Below, piece after piece: positions 3,001 through 6,000 of a stretch of 11,394 nucleotides of DNA (position 1 is its first letter; each line of letters starts with the position of its first letter). The DNA is taken from the IMG/VR virus record IMGVR_UViG_2671180275_000011; one strand, 5' to 3'. A program made the position numbers. The stretch is from a virus. Its lineage: Duplodnaviria > Heunggongvirae > Uroviricota > Caudoviricetes.

Positions 3001-6000
3001 GGGCAGCCGAAAGGCTGGCCGGTTTCCTTTTGCGCCGGTATTTCCACCCCCGCCAGCGTCACCGCCCCTTATGAGCGTGGAAACTCAGGCGGTGACTCCT
3101 TAAATTTGCAAAAGGAGGCTGCCAGAATGGCTACGACCCCAACCCCGTTACACCCTGAATTTACCTTTCACTTTCTGGCCGTTCGCCGTTCCGATCTGAA
3201 CGACCGCCCACACCGCGAATCCGTCAACGCACCCGACGAAACAACCGCCCGCCGTATGCTGGCGCGTGATTTTGTGTTGCTTTTTGCTGGCCGCGTTCCG
3301 GCTCAGGGGGTGAGCCATGCTTAAAAACATGTTGATCGCCTCTTCTTTCGGGCTGTATGATGCCGGAGTCACCCACATGGTGACCGGGTTTAGCAGCCTG
3401 AATAACATAGCGGACAGCCGCTTACATTCCGATATGCGGTTTTTTTGTGTCCGTAAACCTACCCATACCCGCATTATGGCGGGGCGTGACGGGGGAGCCT
3501 TTGCGCTCGCTGGTTTCTATGTTGCCAGTCTGCTAACCCCGTTACGTCTCGCCACCCCGTTTAGCAGCGTAGTAGCGAGACTCCTTACCTCAAACATAGG
3601 AGCCTTTCACATGGCTGTATTCGCACGCCCTTACTTTGTCTGGCGCTTTATGCAGTGCCAGGAAAAACAAACCTCGCTCTTTACCGTCACGGCGGCAACA
3701 GAACGCGAAGCACGCGCGCAGCTACCGCACGCGCATATGATTTTTGTCGCCCGTATTCGTCAGGGGGCGCGCCATGCGTGATTGTCTGCGTGAGTCAATG
3801 AAAGCCGCCATGAGCAGTATGCCGGACGAAGAAAGCCACTGGATTCTGCGCGTTGATGCCGACTGGCACAGAGTGAATTTACTGGCGGGGATTGCCTTTG
3901 TTGGTAAGGCACTGGAGGGAAGCCAGTTACGCGAAAACCCCATCACCTATTCCAGAGACGAGATCTGCCAATTAGCCGGATTTCTACAGACAGCCCCTGC
4001 CCTCATTGGCTGTATGGCCGAACTGATGGAGTGTTACGACCAGCAGGCCGGGGAGGTAAGCCATGTGTGATATGTATAACACCCGGATACCTGAACTACT
4101 GGTTGCGGCCATCAAAAACGCAGACGCACAGGAAGCCCGCGCCCTGTTTGATGATGCGGATTACTGCGCCCGCAAACTGCTTGAAGGGCTGATTAGCACA
4201 GGCCGCCTGCTTTCCGGCATGGGCGACAATCTCGACCCCAGCATGGGCGAACTACGCAGCCTGGGCGATTCCATCGCTGTTACGGCTGAACTTGTGGCCG
4301 GATTCAGTGAGGTTGTGGAGGCGTATAACTGGCGCTGCCGCACCGGGGAAATCAGGGAGGGCGGGCAACATGCGTGACATAGCCACGATTAACGCAATCC
4401 GCAGCGTTGCCGCAGTGGCGGCACAACATGCGGAAATCCTTGTTCCTGAATGGCTGCCCGAAGGTAAACGGCAGGCCACTGAATGGGTGTGCCGTAACCC
4501 CACACGTGCAGACCGTCACGCGGGCAGTTTTTTCGTCTCGCTGGTGGACGGATGCTGGCACGACTTCGCCACCGGGGACAGCGGCGGCGACCTTGTGGCG
4601 CTGGGGGCTTATTTGTGGAATGTGCGTCAGACTGATGCCGCCCGTATTGTGGCGGACAGGCTGGGGCTGTGCCTGCCCGCACTGGGCAAACCTGATGTAA
4701 TGACCCGCGAACAACGGGAGGCGCAACGGGTGCGGGTACAGGCCGCAGAACAGGAGGCGGGCAGACTCCGCCAGCGGGAGCAGCAACAACGCCACCAGCG
4801 CCAGAAACTGACCGCCTGCCGGGCCTTTGAGTTGCTTGGCCGGGCGGAGGTGGCAACCCCTTCTCATCCCTATCTCATGAAAAAACGGCTACAGCCCGGC
4901 AATCTGTATCAGTCGGGTAATGATTTGCTTGTCCCGCTGTACAACGTATGCGGCGAAGTGGTGAACGTGCAGATTATCAGCCCGGACGGTCGAAAAATGT
5001 TTCTCCGTGATGGTCAGGTGCAGGGGGCTTTCCATGTTATGGGGAGCTTTGACCTGATGGCCCCGGAAGCGCCGGAACATGACGTTTACGTGTGTGAGGG
5101 GTGGGCCACCGGGGCCGCCCTTCTCCAGTACTGGAACGTCATGGCCGTGGTGTGTGCCATGAATGCGGGAAACCTTAAACATGTGGCTATGGCGCTGCGT
5201 GAACGATACGGCTCGCGCATATCTCTCGTTATCGCCGGGGATGATGACCGGGCATCAAAAGGCAACCCCGGTTCCAGAGCAGCCAACGAAGCCGCATTGC
5301 TGGCCGGATGTTACGTCACATTCCCGGAATGGCCGCCCGGTGCATCACCAGACCTTTCCGACTTTAACGATTTGATGCTATGGGAAATGGAGCATGACCC
5401 GGACAACCACTAAAACCCCGGTCACATCCGGGAAGCGAAAACCACCACGCAAGAAACACCCCAAAGTCAGCCCGGCACGTCCGGGCTACGCCACTTATTC
5501 GCAGCATGTACAGGTGGACGGCGGCCAGATACTGAAACCCGGCCTTTACTGGCACGGCGTGCGCGACTCAACCAACACGGACACGTTTATCTGTTCCCCG
5601 CTGGAGGTTATCGCCATGACCAGCGACAGCAAAGACGAAAACTACGGGCGATTACTCCGTTTTCTCACGCCGTCAGGCCAGTGGCGGGAATGGGCCGCAC
5701 CGATGGAAATGCTCGCCGGAGACGGCGGAGAACTCCGACAGGAGCTGCTGCGCATGGGCGTTACCATTCCCTACAAACAACGGCAGGCACTGACCGAATA
5801 CATCATGGAGTCAGCACCAAAACGACGGGCGCTCGCGGCTACGGCCACCGGGTGGCACTCCCCGACCCTGTTTGTCATGCCGGGCGGGGTTATCGGTGAT
5901 GGTGATGTGGTGTTTCAGTCAACAGAAGCAGGCTCACAGGAGTACGCCACCGCAGGAACGCCGGAGGGCTGGCGCGACAACGTGGCCGCATTATGCCGGG

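What the first reader, a model, noticed from the sequence alone, without database searches (positions are those of the whole stretch)
3127..4377. Four consecutive 8-nt start/stop overlaps with a near-identical junction sequence and shared C-terminal tails
The junctions at 3317, 3774, 4063 and 4370 all read cATG-(c/t)(t/g)-TAA/TGA (ccATGctTAA, ccATGcgTGA, ccATGtgTGA, acATGcgTGA), each preceded by a G-rich Shine-Dalgarno-like run. As a result each upstream protein ends ...G-x-(S/R/Q)-H-A/V. This is a repeated translational-coupling module. In addition the C-terminal ~50 aa of the 3317-3781 product aligns with the Icd-like protein upstream, suggesting tandem duplication of an Icd-like domain.
Basis: seen in the sequence. 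Interest (0 to 1): 0.5.

Follow-up and report, generated by a model that had tools for sequence, protein, structure and literature searches.

The report
Doubled P4-type RNA immunity leader
This is the regulatory front end of a P4-like phage satellite in E. coli: two back-to-back copies of a known small-RNA immunity switch, each inside a reading frame, then replication genes whose stop and start codons overlap by 8 bases; it is a doubled version of a mechanism already worked out in phage P4, not a new kind of system.

Summary
All four 8-nt start/stop overlaps (3317, 3774, 4063, 4370) are real, and both Icd-like hits are significant. The region holds two tandem cassettes, each with a promoter-like site, an isrK/c4-a1b1 target RNA, a C4 antisense RNA, a second target pair at a Shine-Dalgarno site, and a Kil/Icd-like ORF. 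This is the layout of the phage P4 immunity leader. ORF 3127-3324 is 54% identical to P4 Kil. ORF 2719-3324 matches P4 Eta, the long ORF nested around the CI RNA. P4 itself has 8-nt overlaps at kil/epsilon and epsilon/orf151.

ORF 3317-3781 is a second Eta/Kil-like nested pair. Its first 98 codons are RNA elements: they show no third-position bias, yet the frame is stop-free in every relative examined. The C4 loop and its two targets co-vary perfectly in eight allelic types.

Most likely mechanism, by analogy with P4: C4 RNAs block kil translation on short transcripts. On long transcripts an unbroken train of coupled ribosomes runs through both cassettes into the primase and helicase genes and prevents termination.

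Verdict: a new variant (tandem, relay-linked) of a known system. Interest is modest.

The parts
2491..2697 (+). alpA-type HTH regulator; counterpart of P4 ORF88, the gene before eta
   Evidence: Pfam HTH_17/Phage_AlpA. BLASTP to P4 ORF88 gives E=6e-7.
2719..3324 (+). Eta-like long ORF #1 (201 aa; 199 aa from ATG 2725), read in frame through the RNA cassette into kil#1
   Evidence: 39% identity to the P4 eta-frame ORF, E=6e-33. Pfam Phage_ASH matches the part that overlies the RNAs. Zero stops in this frame against 4 and 4 in the others; shuffles reach zero stops in 167 of 5000.
2818..2847 (+). Promoter-like site #1 (TTGCCT-18-TATATT), ending 7 nt before the isrK RNA start; counterpart of P4 PLE
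   Evidence: One of only two promoter-like sites in 2400-4500. This is a consensus match only.
2841..2933 (+). isrK / c4-a1b1 target RNA #1, with b1 at 2879-2885, a1 at 2898-2905 and an intrinsic terminator at 2912-2933
   Evidence: Rfam isrK 62.6 bits (gathering score 50); c4-a1b1 40.2 bits. Exact complementarity to C4#1. Terminator scan.
2982..3069 (+). C4 antisense RNA #1 (P4 CI RNA homologue); a' loop at 3025-3033, b' segment at 3041-3047
   Evidence: Rfam RF01695 82.3 bits. The a'/b' naming follows the APSE-7 record.
3077..3116 (+). Downstream targets of C4#1: b2 at 3077-3083 and a2 at 3108-3116. a2 overlaps the SD (GGAGG) of kil#1.
   Evidence: Exact complementarity. a and b sites co-vary with the C4 loops in L002, L003, P4 and JL22.
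3127..3324 (+). kil#1 / Icd-like ORF (65 aa), orthologue of P4 Kil
   Evidence: NF033153 E=1e-20. 54% identity over 65 aa to P4 Kil. P4 Kil itself hits NF033153.
3317..3324 (+). Junction 1: ATGCTTAA, stop of kil#1/eta#1 over the ATG of eta#2
   Evidence: An ATG 294 nt upstream of the kil#2-type ATG, in frame, is present in 16 of 16 loci, with 5 junction sequence variants.
3317..3781 (+). Eta-like long ORF #2 (154 aa): 98 codons over the RNA cassette, then kil#2
   Evidence: Stop-free frame, with 8 and 7 stops in the other frames; shuffles reach zero stops in 79 of 5000. More than 120 protein clusters of 150-156 aa. Compensated indels. No third-position bias in codons 1-98.
3332..3361 (+). Promoter-like site #2 (TTGATC-18-TATGAT), ending 7 nt before the isrK-like RNA start at 3368
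   Evidence: consensus match only.
3355..3446 (+). isrK-like / c4-a1b1-like target RNA #2, with b1 at 3390-3396, a1 at 3404-3410, and a hairpin plus U-run ending at 3446
   Evidence: Rfam hits below gathering score: isrK 36.6 bits (E=8e-6), c4-a1b1 29.2 bits (E=6e-5). Exact complementarity to C4#2.
3472..3559 (+). C4 antisense RNA #2; hypervariable a' loop at 3517-3523, b' at 3530-3536
   Evidence: Rfam RF01695 74.0 bits. Eight a'/a1/a2 allelic triplets co-vary perfectly in 17 loci.
3561..3599 (+). Downstream targets of C4#2: b2 at 3561-3567 and a2 at 3593-3599. a2 abuts the SD (TAGGAG) of kil#2.
3611..3781 (+). kil#2 / Icd-like ORF (56 aa)
   Evidence: NF033153 E=3e-15. Variable columns by codon position are 18/20/39, a coding signature.
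3774..4070 (+). orf98, a small protein of unknown function; start overlaps the kil#2 stop by 8 nt (3774-3781)
   Evidence: Only 3 homologous clusters found. No Pfam, PHROG or NCBIfam hit.
4063..4377 (+). orf104, a helical protein restricted to Enterobacterales; 8-nt overlaps at both ends (4063-4070 and 4370-4377)
   Evidence: 57 homologues whose N-termini read M-x-D, the footprint of ATGnnTGA. AlphaFold pLDDT 87, three helices. No significant fold match.
4370..5413 (+). Toprim primase; start overlaps the orf104 stop by 8 nt
   Evidence: Pfam Toprim_3; PHROG DNA primase. 34% identity to P4 alpha, E=8e-15.
5394..7232 (+). DUF927 helicase; start overlaps the primase stop by 20 nt
   Evidence: Pfam DUF927 E=7e-83; junction sequence.

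Best explanation
The window is a P4-like satellite (a gram-negative PICI-type island) inserted between yicC and dinD of E. coli. Positions 2719-7232 are its 'left operon'.

The front end carries two tandem copies of the P4-type immunity leader. Each copy has:
- an internal promoter-like site;
- a short terminated RNA carrying targets b1 and a1 (isrK/c4-a1b1);
- a C4/CI-type antisense RNA with an a' loop and a b' segment;
- a second target pair b2/a2, with a2 on the Shine-Dalgarno site of a Kil/Icd-like ORF;
- a long stop-free frame (Eta-like) that reads through all of this, in frame, into kil.

Proposed mechanism, inferred from P4. On short transcripts from the internal promoters, C4 RNA is produced. 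It pairs with a2/b2 and blocks kil translation, and the untranslated RNA is terminated, so the replication genes stay off. On long transcripts from upstream (the alpA promoter), ribosomes translate eta#1. At its stop they reinitiate at the overlapping ATG 3317 and translate eta#2 straight through the second cassette. They are then handed on through the 8-nt overlaps to orf98, orf104 and primase, and through the 20-nt overlap to helicase. This unbroken ribosome train hides the RNA targets and Rho entry sites, so both locks are bypassed and replication genes are expressed.

The 8-nt junctions are therefore termination-reinitiation couplers. Their SD sits in the last codons of the upstream gene. 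The shared ...G-x-x-H-A tails are a by-product of that DNA.

Shown here: the RNA genes, the complementarity and covariation, homology to P4 Kil and Eta, conserved overlaps, stop-free frames, and the contrast in codon-position pattern.

Inferred: actual coupling, Rho-dependent termination, promoter activity, and use of ATG 3317.
For: RNA genes: two C4 RNAs at 82 and 74 bits, plus isrK and c4-a1b1.

Complementarity: exact matches of the C4 a' loop and b' segment to sites on both sides, with a2 at the kil SD, in both cassettes and with different sequences in each.

Covariation: eight perfectly co-varying a'/a1/a2 allelic triplets occur in otherwise near-identical module-2 backbones. Both a and b sites co-vary across window, L002, L003, P4 and P1-like JL22.

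P4 comparison: P4 has C4, isrK and c4-a1b1 in the same order. P4 Kil is 54% identical to 3127-3324, and the P4 Eta frame is 39% identical to 2719-3324 with E=6e-33. P4 has 8-nt overlaps at cI-ORF/epsilon and epsilon/orf151.

Published P4 mechanism: a constitutive promoter lies inside eta; CI RNA causes early termination; Kil is the truncated form; eta is coupled to the alpA homologue; and eta translation prevents termination (PMC10111431 citing Forti et al. 1999).

Frame conservation: the kil frame is open for at least 99 codons upstream in every P4-type C4-kil pair examined, including Moraxellaceae L006 and L003. It is open for only 6 codons in the P1-like phage. Dinucleotide shuffles give P about 0.016 and 0.033. 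There are two different compensated -1/+1 indel configurations. More than 120 protein clusters are 150-156 aa long.

Codon positions: variable columns are 18/20/39 in kil#2 but 17/17/8 in the 98 upstream codons. That fits a frame that is traversed but whose peptide is not selected.

Promoters: the only two promoter-like sites in 2400-4500 each end 7 nt before an isrK-type RNA start.

Precedents for coupling: -8 lies inside the termination-reinitiation window (PMC10666635). In Gifsy-1, an ORF across the homologous RNA is translated and coupled to the next gene (PMC4825925).
Against: Nothing here measures translation, coupling, termination or promoter activity.

The relatives that show the stop-free module-2 frame are closely related (80-94% nt identity), and the region is under strong RNA-level constraint. 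Part of the frame conservation may therefore be inherited rather than selected.

A test for stop avoidance in the hypervariable sites has no power: 82% of random specificities stay stop-free.

The gap between the alpA stop (2697) and the first eta#1 ATG (2719) is 21 nt with a weak SD, unlike the ATGA overlap in P4. Coupling of eta#1 to alpA is therefore doubtful here.

The junction regions fold no better than shuffled sequence, z from -0.45 to +1.4. There is no sign of SD masking that would enforce coupling, and each downstream gene has its own SD and could initiate independently.

The -8 overlap is reported to reinitiate less efficiently than -4 or -1.
Confidence: 0.75

Rival explanations
1. 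Only three junctions are functional. ATG 3317 is an unused relic of the 'coupler' that every kil 3' end carries. In this view 3325-3610 is purely an RNA/promoter region, kil#2 is made only from ATG 3611 under C4#2 control, and the open frame is there by descent and G+C-rich RNA composition.
For: The 98 codons are fully occupied by a promoter-like site, target RNA, terminator-like hairpin and C4 RNA. They show no third-position bias (17/17/8). kil#2 has its own strong SD (TAGGAG), which is targeted by C4#2. The relatives are close, so openness may be inherited. No protein family matches 3317-3610.
Against: The frame is stop-free in 16 of 16 loci while the other frames carry 7-8 stops. The ATG and the stop are kept while the bases around them vary, in 5 junction variants. 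Indels are always compensated, in two configurations. The same property holds in independent lineages: module 1, the 62-aa Kil type, Moraxellaceae and P4. It is absent in the P1-like phage. The P4 eta precedent shows that such a frame is translated and functional.
Confidence: 0.2
2. The near-identical junctions are mosaic joints. The conserved 3' end of kil/icd-like genes (CGT-ATT-CGT-CAG-GGG...CATGnnTRA) is a site of homologous recombination where modules are swapped. The sequence similarity would then reflect shared ancestry of the joint rather than selection for coupling.
For: The same joint precedes quite different genes: orf98 in the window; orf104 in L003; 61-, 75-, 76- and 106-aa ORFs in L008-L022; and an RNA cassette at 3317. 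An unrelated AntA-type gene in L002 also ends ...NASHA with ATGcgTAA. The published description of the PICI 'Bro zone' calls it dynamic and domain-swapping.
Against: This does not explain the orf98/orf104 and orf104/primase junctions, whose upstream genes are not kil-like. It does not explain the M-x-D N-termini kept across the 57-member orf104 family. It does not explain why overlap persists when the joint changes to -1, -4 or -11, or in the distant Moraxellaceae chain. It is compatible with the coupling explanation and complements it rather than replacing it.
Confidence: 0.1
3. The long ORFs are ordinary proteins, as annotated in RefSeq ('host cell division inhibitor Icd-like protein' of 199 and 154 aa; 'Ash family'). 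On this view the Rfam hits are incidental.
For: PGAP annotates 2725-3324 and 3317-3781 as CDS. Pfam Phage_ASH matches residues 42-148 of the 2719 ORF at 94 bits. Many database proteins are of the same length.
Against: Rfam scores are far above gathering (82 and 74 bits against 45). There is three-way covariation of loop and targets in eight alleles. The N-part lacks third-position bias while kil#2 has it. The Icd-like profile covers only the last ~48 residues. The Gifsy-1 paper notes that the nucleotide sequence, but not the amino-acid sequence, of the homologous ORF is conserved.
Confidence: 0.05

Closest known systems
Phage P4 immunity leader: PLE promoter, seqA, CI RNA, seqC, nested genes kil and eta, then epsilon, orf151 and alpha (Forti et al. 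1999 J Bacteriol 181:5225; Sabbattini et al. 1995 J Bacteriol 177:1425; both cited through PMC10111431)
   Same: Same order of elements and the same Rfam families (C4, isrK, c4-a1b1). Kil is 54% and Eta 39% identical. The long ORF is in frame through the RNA gene. There is an alpA-type gene upstream. The next genes are joined by 8-nt overlaps. A primase lies downstream.
   Different: The cassette is present twice in tandem, with different a/b specificities. The second long ORF starts at an ATG overlapping the first kil stop, not after an alpA homologue. The genes after kil (orf98, orf104) are unrelated to P4 epsilon, orf151 and orf106. Primase and helicase are separate genes (Toprim + DUF927) rather than one alpha protein. 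eta#1 starts 21 nt after alpA, not at an ATGA overlap.
Phage P1/P7 immI operon: c4 antisense RNA, icd, ant1/2 (Citron & Schuster 1990 Cell 62:591; Riedel et al. 1993 J Bacteriol 175:2833; cited through PMC8198154)
   Same: C4 RNA with a'/b' elements, flanking a1b1 and a2b2 targets, and an Icd-like ORF whose SD is the target. In P1-like JL22 the a-site sequence GCAAAAGG is identical to that of module 1. The next gene overlaps the icd stop.
   Different: In the P1-like phage the icd frame is open for only 6 codons upstream, so there is no Eta-type ORF. Its Icd is 73 aa with a GTG start, the overlap is ATGA (4 nt), and the coupled gene is an antirepressor. Here the coupled genes are small unknown proteins and replication genes.
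Gifsy-1 isrK-orf45-anrP locus of Salmonella (PMC4825925)
   Same: The isrK RNA is followed by an ORF lying over a roughly 80-nt processed RNA. That ORF is translated, and its translation is needed for the next gene through a stop/start overlap. Nucleotide rather than amino-acid conservation of the ORF is noted there, as found here.
   Different: orf45 is a separate 45-codon ORF ending in AUGA at an antirepressor gene. Here the equivalent frame is fused to a Kil/Icd-like domain and ends in an 8-nt overlap. IsrK is described there as an activator acting in trans.
Gram-negative PICI 'Bro zone' with immunity RNAs (PMC10111431)
   Same: int and alpA, then a zone with C4/isrK-type RNAs inside long ORFs, then primase; the genes are unidirectional.
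   Different: That paper notes CI/seqA homologues in several PICIs. In the passages read it does not describe tandem cassettes, their allelic specificities, or the overlap relay between them.
Termination-reinitiation coupling at short gene overlaps (PMC6728339, PMC10666635)
   Same: Co-directional genes with overlaps inside the -8 to +6 window and an SD in the upstream gene.
   Different: Runs of -8 are unusual, since -4 and -1 dominate genome-wide. One of the 'downstream genes' here is mostly an RNA cassette.

Membership tests
P4-type immunity leader (eta/kil nested genes around CI RNA) | CI/C4-type antisense RNA gene within the leader | tested here: met
   Rfam RF01695 at 2982-3069 (82.3 bits) and 3472-3559 (74.0 bits), gathering score 45. 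P4's own CI region scores 74.9 bits.
P4-type immunity leader (eta/kil nested genes around CI RNA) | Complementary target sites both upstream and downstream of the RNA gene, the downstream one at the kil ribosome-binding site | tested here: met
   Exact 7-9-nt complementarity in both cassettes. Perfect covariation in 8 alleles and across P4, P1-like JL22, L002 and L003.
P4-type immunity leader (eta/kil nested genes around CI RNA) | Short Kil ORF homologous to P4 Kil | tested here: met
   3127-3324 is 54% identical over all 65 aa. Both hit NF033153. kil#2 hits NF033153 at E=3e-15 but is only 27% identical to kil#1.
P4-type immunity leader (eta/kil nested genes around CI RNA) | Long ORF (Eta) in frame with kil, extending upstream through the RNA gene and past the internal promoter | tested here: met
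   2719-3324 is 201 aa against 197-199 aa in P4, 39% identity, E=6e-33. 3317-3781 is stop-free. Frames are open for at least 99 codons in all relatives.
P4-type immunity leader (eta/kil nested genes around CI RNA) | Constitutive promoter internal to eta that drives the immunity RNA | tested here: inconclusive
   Consensus-type sites at 2818-2847 and 3332-3361, each ending 7 nt before an isrK-type RNA start. The number of sites is not above the shuffle expectation (2 against 1.3, sd 1.2). Activity was not measured.
P4-type immunity leader (eta/kil nested genes around CI RNA) | Rho-dependent termination downstream that is prevented by translation of kil/eta | not testable with these tools
   Needs transcript mapping with and without Rho inhibition and with nonsense mutations.
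P4-type immunity leader (eta/kil nested genes around CI RNA) | [quoted passage not shown] | tested here: inconclusive
   P4 has ATGA at orf88/eta. The window has a 21-nt gap (2698-2718) and a weak SD. For eta#2 the upstream partner is kil#1, with an 8-nt overlap.
P1 immI operon (c4-icd-ant) | icd coupled to an antirepressor gene (ant) downstream | tested here: not met
   The downstream genes are orf98, orf104 and primase, with no AntA, Bro or KilA hits. In P1-like JL22 the downstream gene is roi/ant with an ATGA overlap.
P1 immI operon (c4-icd-ant) | c4 RNA lies in an untranslated leader, with no ORF in frame with icd across it | tested here: not met
   JL22 has 6 open codons upstream of icd. 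The window has 136 and 98 codons.
Gifsy-1 isrK-orf45-anrP | isrK RNA followed by a separate small ORF ending at the start of an antirepressor gene | tested here: not met
   isrK is present at 62.6 bits, but the frame continues into a Kil/Icd-like domain and no antirepressor follows.
Termination-reinitiation coupled gene pairs | Co-directional genes with a stop/start distance between -8 and +6 nt and an SD upstream of the start | tested here: met
   Four -8 junctions with G-rich runs 6-8 nt upstream. The window of distances is as defined in PMC10666635.
Termination-reinitiation coupled gene pairs | Downstream translation depends on upstream translation | not testable with these tools
   Needs reporter fusions with upstream nonsense mutations. 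Local folding gives no sign of SD masking.
P4-like satellite / gram-negative PICI | Unidirectional int, alpA and primase genes in a 10-20-kb island | tested here: met
   int 1-1272, alpA 2491-2697, primase 4370-5413. The island lies between yicC and dinD in NZ_CP027586.
P4-like satellite / gram-negative PICI | Mobilisation by a helper phage | not testable with these tools
No capsid or packaging gene was recognised in the window.

The most novel reading that the evidence does not exclude
The island carries two RNA immunity locks in series, with different specificities. They are joined by a ribosome relay: the stop of kil#1 overlaps the ATG of a reading frame whose only role is to carry ribosomes through the second RNA cassette. 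The replication genes would then be a logic gate. They stay off unless a long, fully translated transcript is made, or both C4 RNAs are titrated. The eight interchangeable a'/a1/a2 alleles on one backbone would reflect diversifying selection for immunity specificity among co-circulating satellites, and the tandem layout would give one element two immunity types.
Probability: 0.35. Interest if true: 0.55.

Novelty: new variant of a known kind. Interest (0 to 1): 0.35.

Why it matters
The result shows that a widespread class of annotated 'Icd-like' and 'Ash family' proteins in E. coli islands is really the P4 eta/kil/CI-RNA regulatory device. Matches to this region occur in 403 of 5,426 complete genomes, and the 154-aa form has more than 120 protein clusters.

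It corrects gene models in these islands. RNA genes are missing from the annotation, the genes are nested, and Pfam Phage_ASH is a translation of RNA elements.

It gives a concrete, testable model of how satellites keep replication genes silent and then switch them on. The tandem, relay-linked form and the eight exchangeable specificity alleles are a compact natural example of RNA-based immunity diversification. They could also serve as orthogonal RNA switches.

It does not reveal a new principle. The mechanism was worked out in P4 and P1.

Tried and rejected
1. First working idea: ATG 3317 is a spurious start because RNA genes lie under the ORF. I abandoned this as a firm claim after finding stop-free frames in every relative, compensated indels and the P4 eta precedent. 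It is kept as a rival explanation.

2. The search for related loci with the primase in genome contigs gave only 3 loci. An exact 25-mer from the module-2 spacer in viral contigs was more productive, giving 12 loci.

3. Stop avoidance in the hypervariable a sites cannot be tested: 82% of all hexamer specificities remain stop-free.

4. Local RNA folding of the four junctions and the two kil starts is no more stable than shuffles. There is therefore no evidence for coupling by unmasking of the SD.

5. orf98 and orf104 as paralogues: BLASTP gives E=0.03 at 24% identity. This is suggestive only and is not claimed.

6. Function of orf98 and orf104:
- No Pfam, NCBIfam or PHROG hit.
- No similarity to P4 epsilon, orf151 or orf106.
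- orf98 has 3 homologous clusters, and its single-sequence model is unreliable (pLDDT 48).
- The orf104 model is good (pLDDT 87), but Foldseek against PDB and BFVD gives nothing below E=0.5.

7. The primary papers (Riedel 1993, PMC204598; Forti 1999, PMC94026) are not held in the library. Their content is cited through PMC8198154 and PMC10111431, and partly from memory.

8. Pantoea locus L005 has no C4 hit and a broken primase, so it was not informative.

9. Minus-strand ORFs in 3127-4377 (for example 3148-3474 and 3722-3946) have no family support and are not annotated in RefSeq. I treated them as shadow ORFs.

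
Full report
**1. Observation.**
The four junctions are in the sequence exactly as described: ATGCTTAA at 3317, ATGCGTGA at 3774, ATGTGTGA at 4063 and ATGCGTGA at 4370. Each is an 8-nt overlap of a stop with the next ATG, and each has a G-run 6-8 nt upstream. The tails QGVSHA, QGARHA, GEVSHV and GGQHA follow directly from that DNA: GGN/GAG codons form the SD-like run, and CAT-Gnn-stop gives His-Ala/Val-stop.

The window is 100% identical to part of the E. coli 2012EL-2448 chromosome. There it is an island between yicC and dinD. RefSeq annotates the same chain of ORFs, including 2725-3324 and 3317-3781 as 'Icd-like' proteins. 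The -8 class is the third commonest overlap in E. coli, after -4 and -1, and lies inside the window where termination-reinitiation works (PMC10666635).

**2.
An Rfam scan finds two C4 antisense RNAs: 2982-3069 at 82 bits and 3472-3559 at 74 bits. It also finds an isrK RNA at 2854-2933. At relaxed threshold it finds c4-a1b1 at 2841-2893, a second isrK-like element at 3368-3446 and a second c4-a1b1-like element at 3355-3404. The only two promoter-like sites in 2400-4500 are at 2818-2847 and 3332-3361, and each ends 7 nt before one of these isrK-type RNAs.

So the duplicated unit is a whole cassette: promoter-like site, target RNA with terminator, C4 RNA, second targets, and a Kil/Icd-like ORF. 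Cassette 1 spans about 2818-3324 and cassette 2 about 3332-3781 (alignment).

**3. RNA-RNA pairing.**
I use the a'/b' names as annotated in the APSE-7 record.
- C4#1: loop a' (3025-3033) is exactly complementary to a1 (2898-2905) and a2 (3108-3116). a2 overlaps the GGAGG SD of ATG 3127. Segment b' (3041-3047) matches b1 (2879-2885) and b2 (3077-3083).
- C4#2: it has different sequences but the same geometry. a' is 3517-3523, a1 is 3404-3410 and a2 is 3593-3599, next to the TAGGAG SD of ATG 3611. b' is 3530-3536, b1 is 3390-3396 and b2 is 3561-3567.

In 17 loci carrying a module-2-type cassette (E. coli genomes and IMG/VR contigs) the backbone is nearly invariant. The a' loop and both targets, however, change together in eight allelic types: CTATGTT/AACATAG, CCAATTT/AAATTGG, CTTTGCT/AGCAAAG, CTGTAGT/ACTACAG, CTACAGT/ACTGTAG, CCAGATG/CATCTGG, CCAAAGT/ACTTTGG and CTATCTG/CAGATAG. 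Module-1-type cassettes show the same covariation of both a and b sites across the window, L002, L003, phage P4 and the P1-like phage JL22. This is strong comparative evidence that the RNAs and their targets are functional.

**4. Identity with P4.**
Phage P4 (NC_001609) has C4, isrK and c4-a1b1 hits in the same order.
- Its 65-aa Kil ORF is 54% identical to 3127-3324.
- Its Eta frame (197-199 aa from the ATGATGATG that overlaps the orf88 stop) is 39% identical to 2719-3324, with E=6e-33.
- P4 Kil, the P1-like Icd and both window ORFs all hit NF033153.
- P4's annotated cI-ORF/epsilon and epsilon/orf151 junctions are both 8-nt overlaps: GTGCGTAA and ATGTTTGA.

The published P4 mechanism is summarised in PMC10111431, citing Forti et al. 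1999 and Sabbattini et al. 1995. A constitutive promoter inside eta gives a transcript that is quickly terminated through CI/seqA interactions and is processed to CI RNA. Kil is the truncated product. Full-length Eta is made only from an upstream late promoter and is coupled to the alpA homologue. Eta translation prevents termination, so the downstream genes are read. From memory of the Forti abstract, the terminator is Rho-dependent and nonsense mutations in eta restore termination.

**5. Is ORF 3317-3781 real?**
I first took ATG 3317 for an artefact. The evidence is mixed but leans towards a frame that is traversed by ribosomes without encoding a selected peptide.

For use of the frame:
- The kil frame is stop-free for at least 99 codons upstream in every P4-type C4-kil pair examined: module 2 in 16 loci, a 62-aa Kil type, L003 and a Moraxellaceae locus. 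The other frames carry 1-10 stops.
- Dinucleotide shuffles give zero stops in 79 of 5000 trials for 3317-3610 and in 167 of 5000 for 2719-3126.
- The first in-frame ATG is always exactly 294 nt upstream of the kil#2-type ATG. It is always the ATG that overlaps the preceding stop, in five junction sequence variants.
- Two different -1/+1 indel configurations both restore the frame.
- More than 120 protein clusters are 150-156 aa long.
- The P1-like phage has only 6 open codons upstream of icd, so the open frame is a P4-type trait and not a property of C4 RNA sequence.

Against protein-level function:
- Variable alignment columns by codon position are 17/17/8 in codons 1-98, against 18/20/39 in kil#2.
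- No protein family matches 3317-3610.
- Pfam Phage_ASH simply matches the translation of the RNA region of cassette 1.
- In Gifsy-1 the homologous ORF is translated and coupled to the next gene, yet only its nucleotide sequence is conserved (PMC4825925).

**6. The junctions in relatives.**
After a kil-type gene, the ATG of the next gene keeps its position and its SD (the CAG-GGG/GAG-G codons of the conserved ...RIRQG/E motif). The stop moves, giving -8 (9 of 14), -11, -4, -1, or a fusion.

The downstream gene differs from locus to locus: orf98; orf104 in L003; and ORFs of 61, 75, 76 and 106 aa. In L002 an AntA-type gene also ends ...NASHA with ATGcgTAA onto an Eta-like ORF.

The orf104 family (57 clusters, Enterobacterales) nearly always starts M-x-D with a hypervariable x. 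That is the footprint of ATGnnTGA. Its C-termini indicate -8 in about half of the clusters and ATGA in others. A Moraxellaceae element has an Eta-like ORF with C4 inside it, then -4, -4, -8, -8 overlaps up to the primase.

What is conserved is therefore an unbroken chain of tight overlaps. The figure of 8 nt is a lineage habit.

**7. Mechanism proposed.**
On short transcripts from the internal promoters, C4 RNAs are made. They occlude the kil ribosome-binding sites, and the untranslated RNA is terminated. On long transcripts, ribosomes pass from eta#1 to eta#2 at 3317, run through the second cassette, and are handed on at 3774, 4063, 4370 and 5394 to orf98, orf104, primase and helicase. This bypasses both locks and protects the RNA from Rho. 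The steps that are shown here and those that are inferred are listed under Best explanation.

Weak points:
- No expression data were available.
- There is a 21-nt gap and a weak SD between alpA and eta#1.
- There is no SD-masking structure at the junctions.
- The module-2 sample is phylogenetically narrow.

**8. Comparison and novelty.**
The core is known from P4 immunity and its eta/kil nested genes, from P1 c4-icd, and from the C4/isrK homologues noted in PICI 'Bro zones'. In the passages I read, three points were not described:
- the tandem arrangement of two cassettes with different specificities;
- the relay ATG that links them;
- the set of exchangeable a-site alleles.

The tandem form is common. 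Matches to this region occur in 403 of 5,426 complete E. coli genomes, and most of them cover the module-2 segment. I rate this a new variant of a known kind, of modest interest. Its main practical value is in correcting annotation.

**9. Dead ends.**
orf98 and orf104 remain of unknown function. Their paralogy is only suggestive.

Noticed in passing
window 2842-3126 (and P4 L023 8420-8705, minus strand): Pfam PF10554 'Ash protein family' matches the in-frame translation of the isrK/c4-a1b1/C4 RNA region (84-94 bits). RefSeq 'ash family protein' and long 'Icd-like protein' calls therefore overlie RNA genes that are not annotated.
   Followed up: partly
window 1279-1344: Rfam int-alpA RNA (RF02996, 64 bits) lies between the integrase gene and the 317-aa ORF 1368-2321. 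That ORF has no family hit.
   Followed up: no
window 7267-7509: Iteron-like repeats GGGAACTGGTGGGAAC (4 copies) and a perfect 30-nt inverted repeat (7267-7296 / 7480-7509) lie just downstream of the DUF927 helicase gene. This is probably the origin of replication.
   Followed up: no
window 10081-10162: A tRNA-like element scores 35 bits in Rfam, just above gathering, and is annotated tRNA-Tyr in RefSeq. ARAGORN does not call it. It may be a degenerate tRNA or an att-site remnant at the right end of the island, before dinD.
   Followed up: partly
L024 (Escherichia phage JL22, ON018986.2) 2641-2886: The annotated gp121 appears to be one base out of frame. A 73-aa Icd-like ORF starts at GTG 2643, hits NF033153 and overlaps roi/ant by ATGA.
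   Followed up: yes
L008 1851-3503; L009, L010 and L017 upstream of the module-2 junction: The frame that ends in the upstream kil-like domain stays open for 370-560 codons. Its translation looks unlike a protein, and in L009 and L010 it runs antisense across annotated minus-strand YlcI/YnfO genes. Whether this is selected read-through or a shadow ORF is unexplained.
   Followed up: no
window 3095-3120 and 3580-3604: The kil SD lies in a hairpin whose 5' arm is an invariant anti-SD (GACUCCUUA) and whose loop carries the a2 target. The sequence is conserved in all relatives, but the fold is no more stable than shuffles. This may be a kissing-loop target for the C4 a' loop.
   Followed up: partly
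window 8639-9201: RefSeq marks an ssb fragment (N-terminus missing) and a frameshifted perC gene here, followed by a Mor-family gene at 9291-9698. The right half of the island looks partly decayed.
   Followed up: no
L007 and L010 (module-2 homologues): A 104-nt deletion removes most of kil#2 while the C4 RNA, its targets and the junction remain intact. These may be immunity-only remnants.
   Followed up: no
Relatives read CATACC there. ATG 2986 is part of the conserved 5' end of C4.
   Followed up: yes
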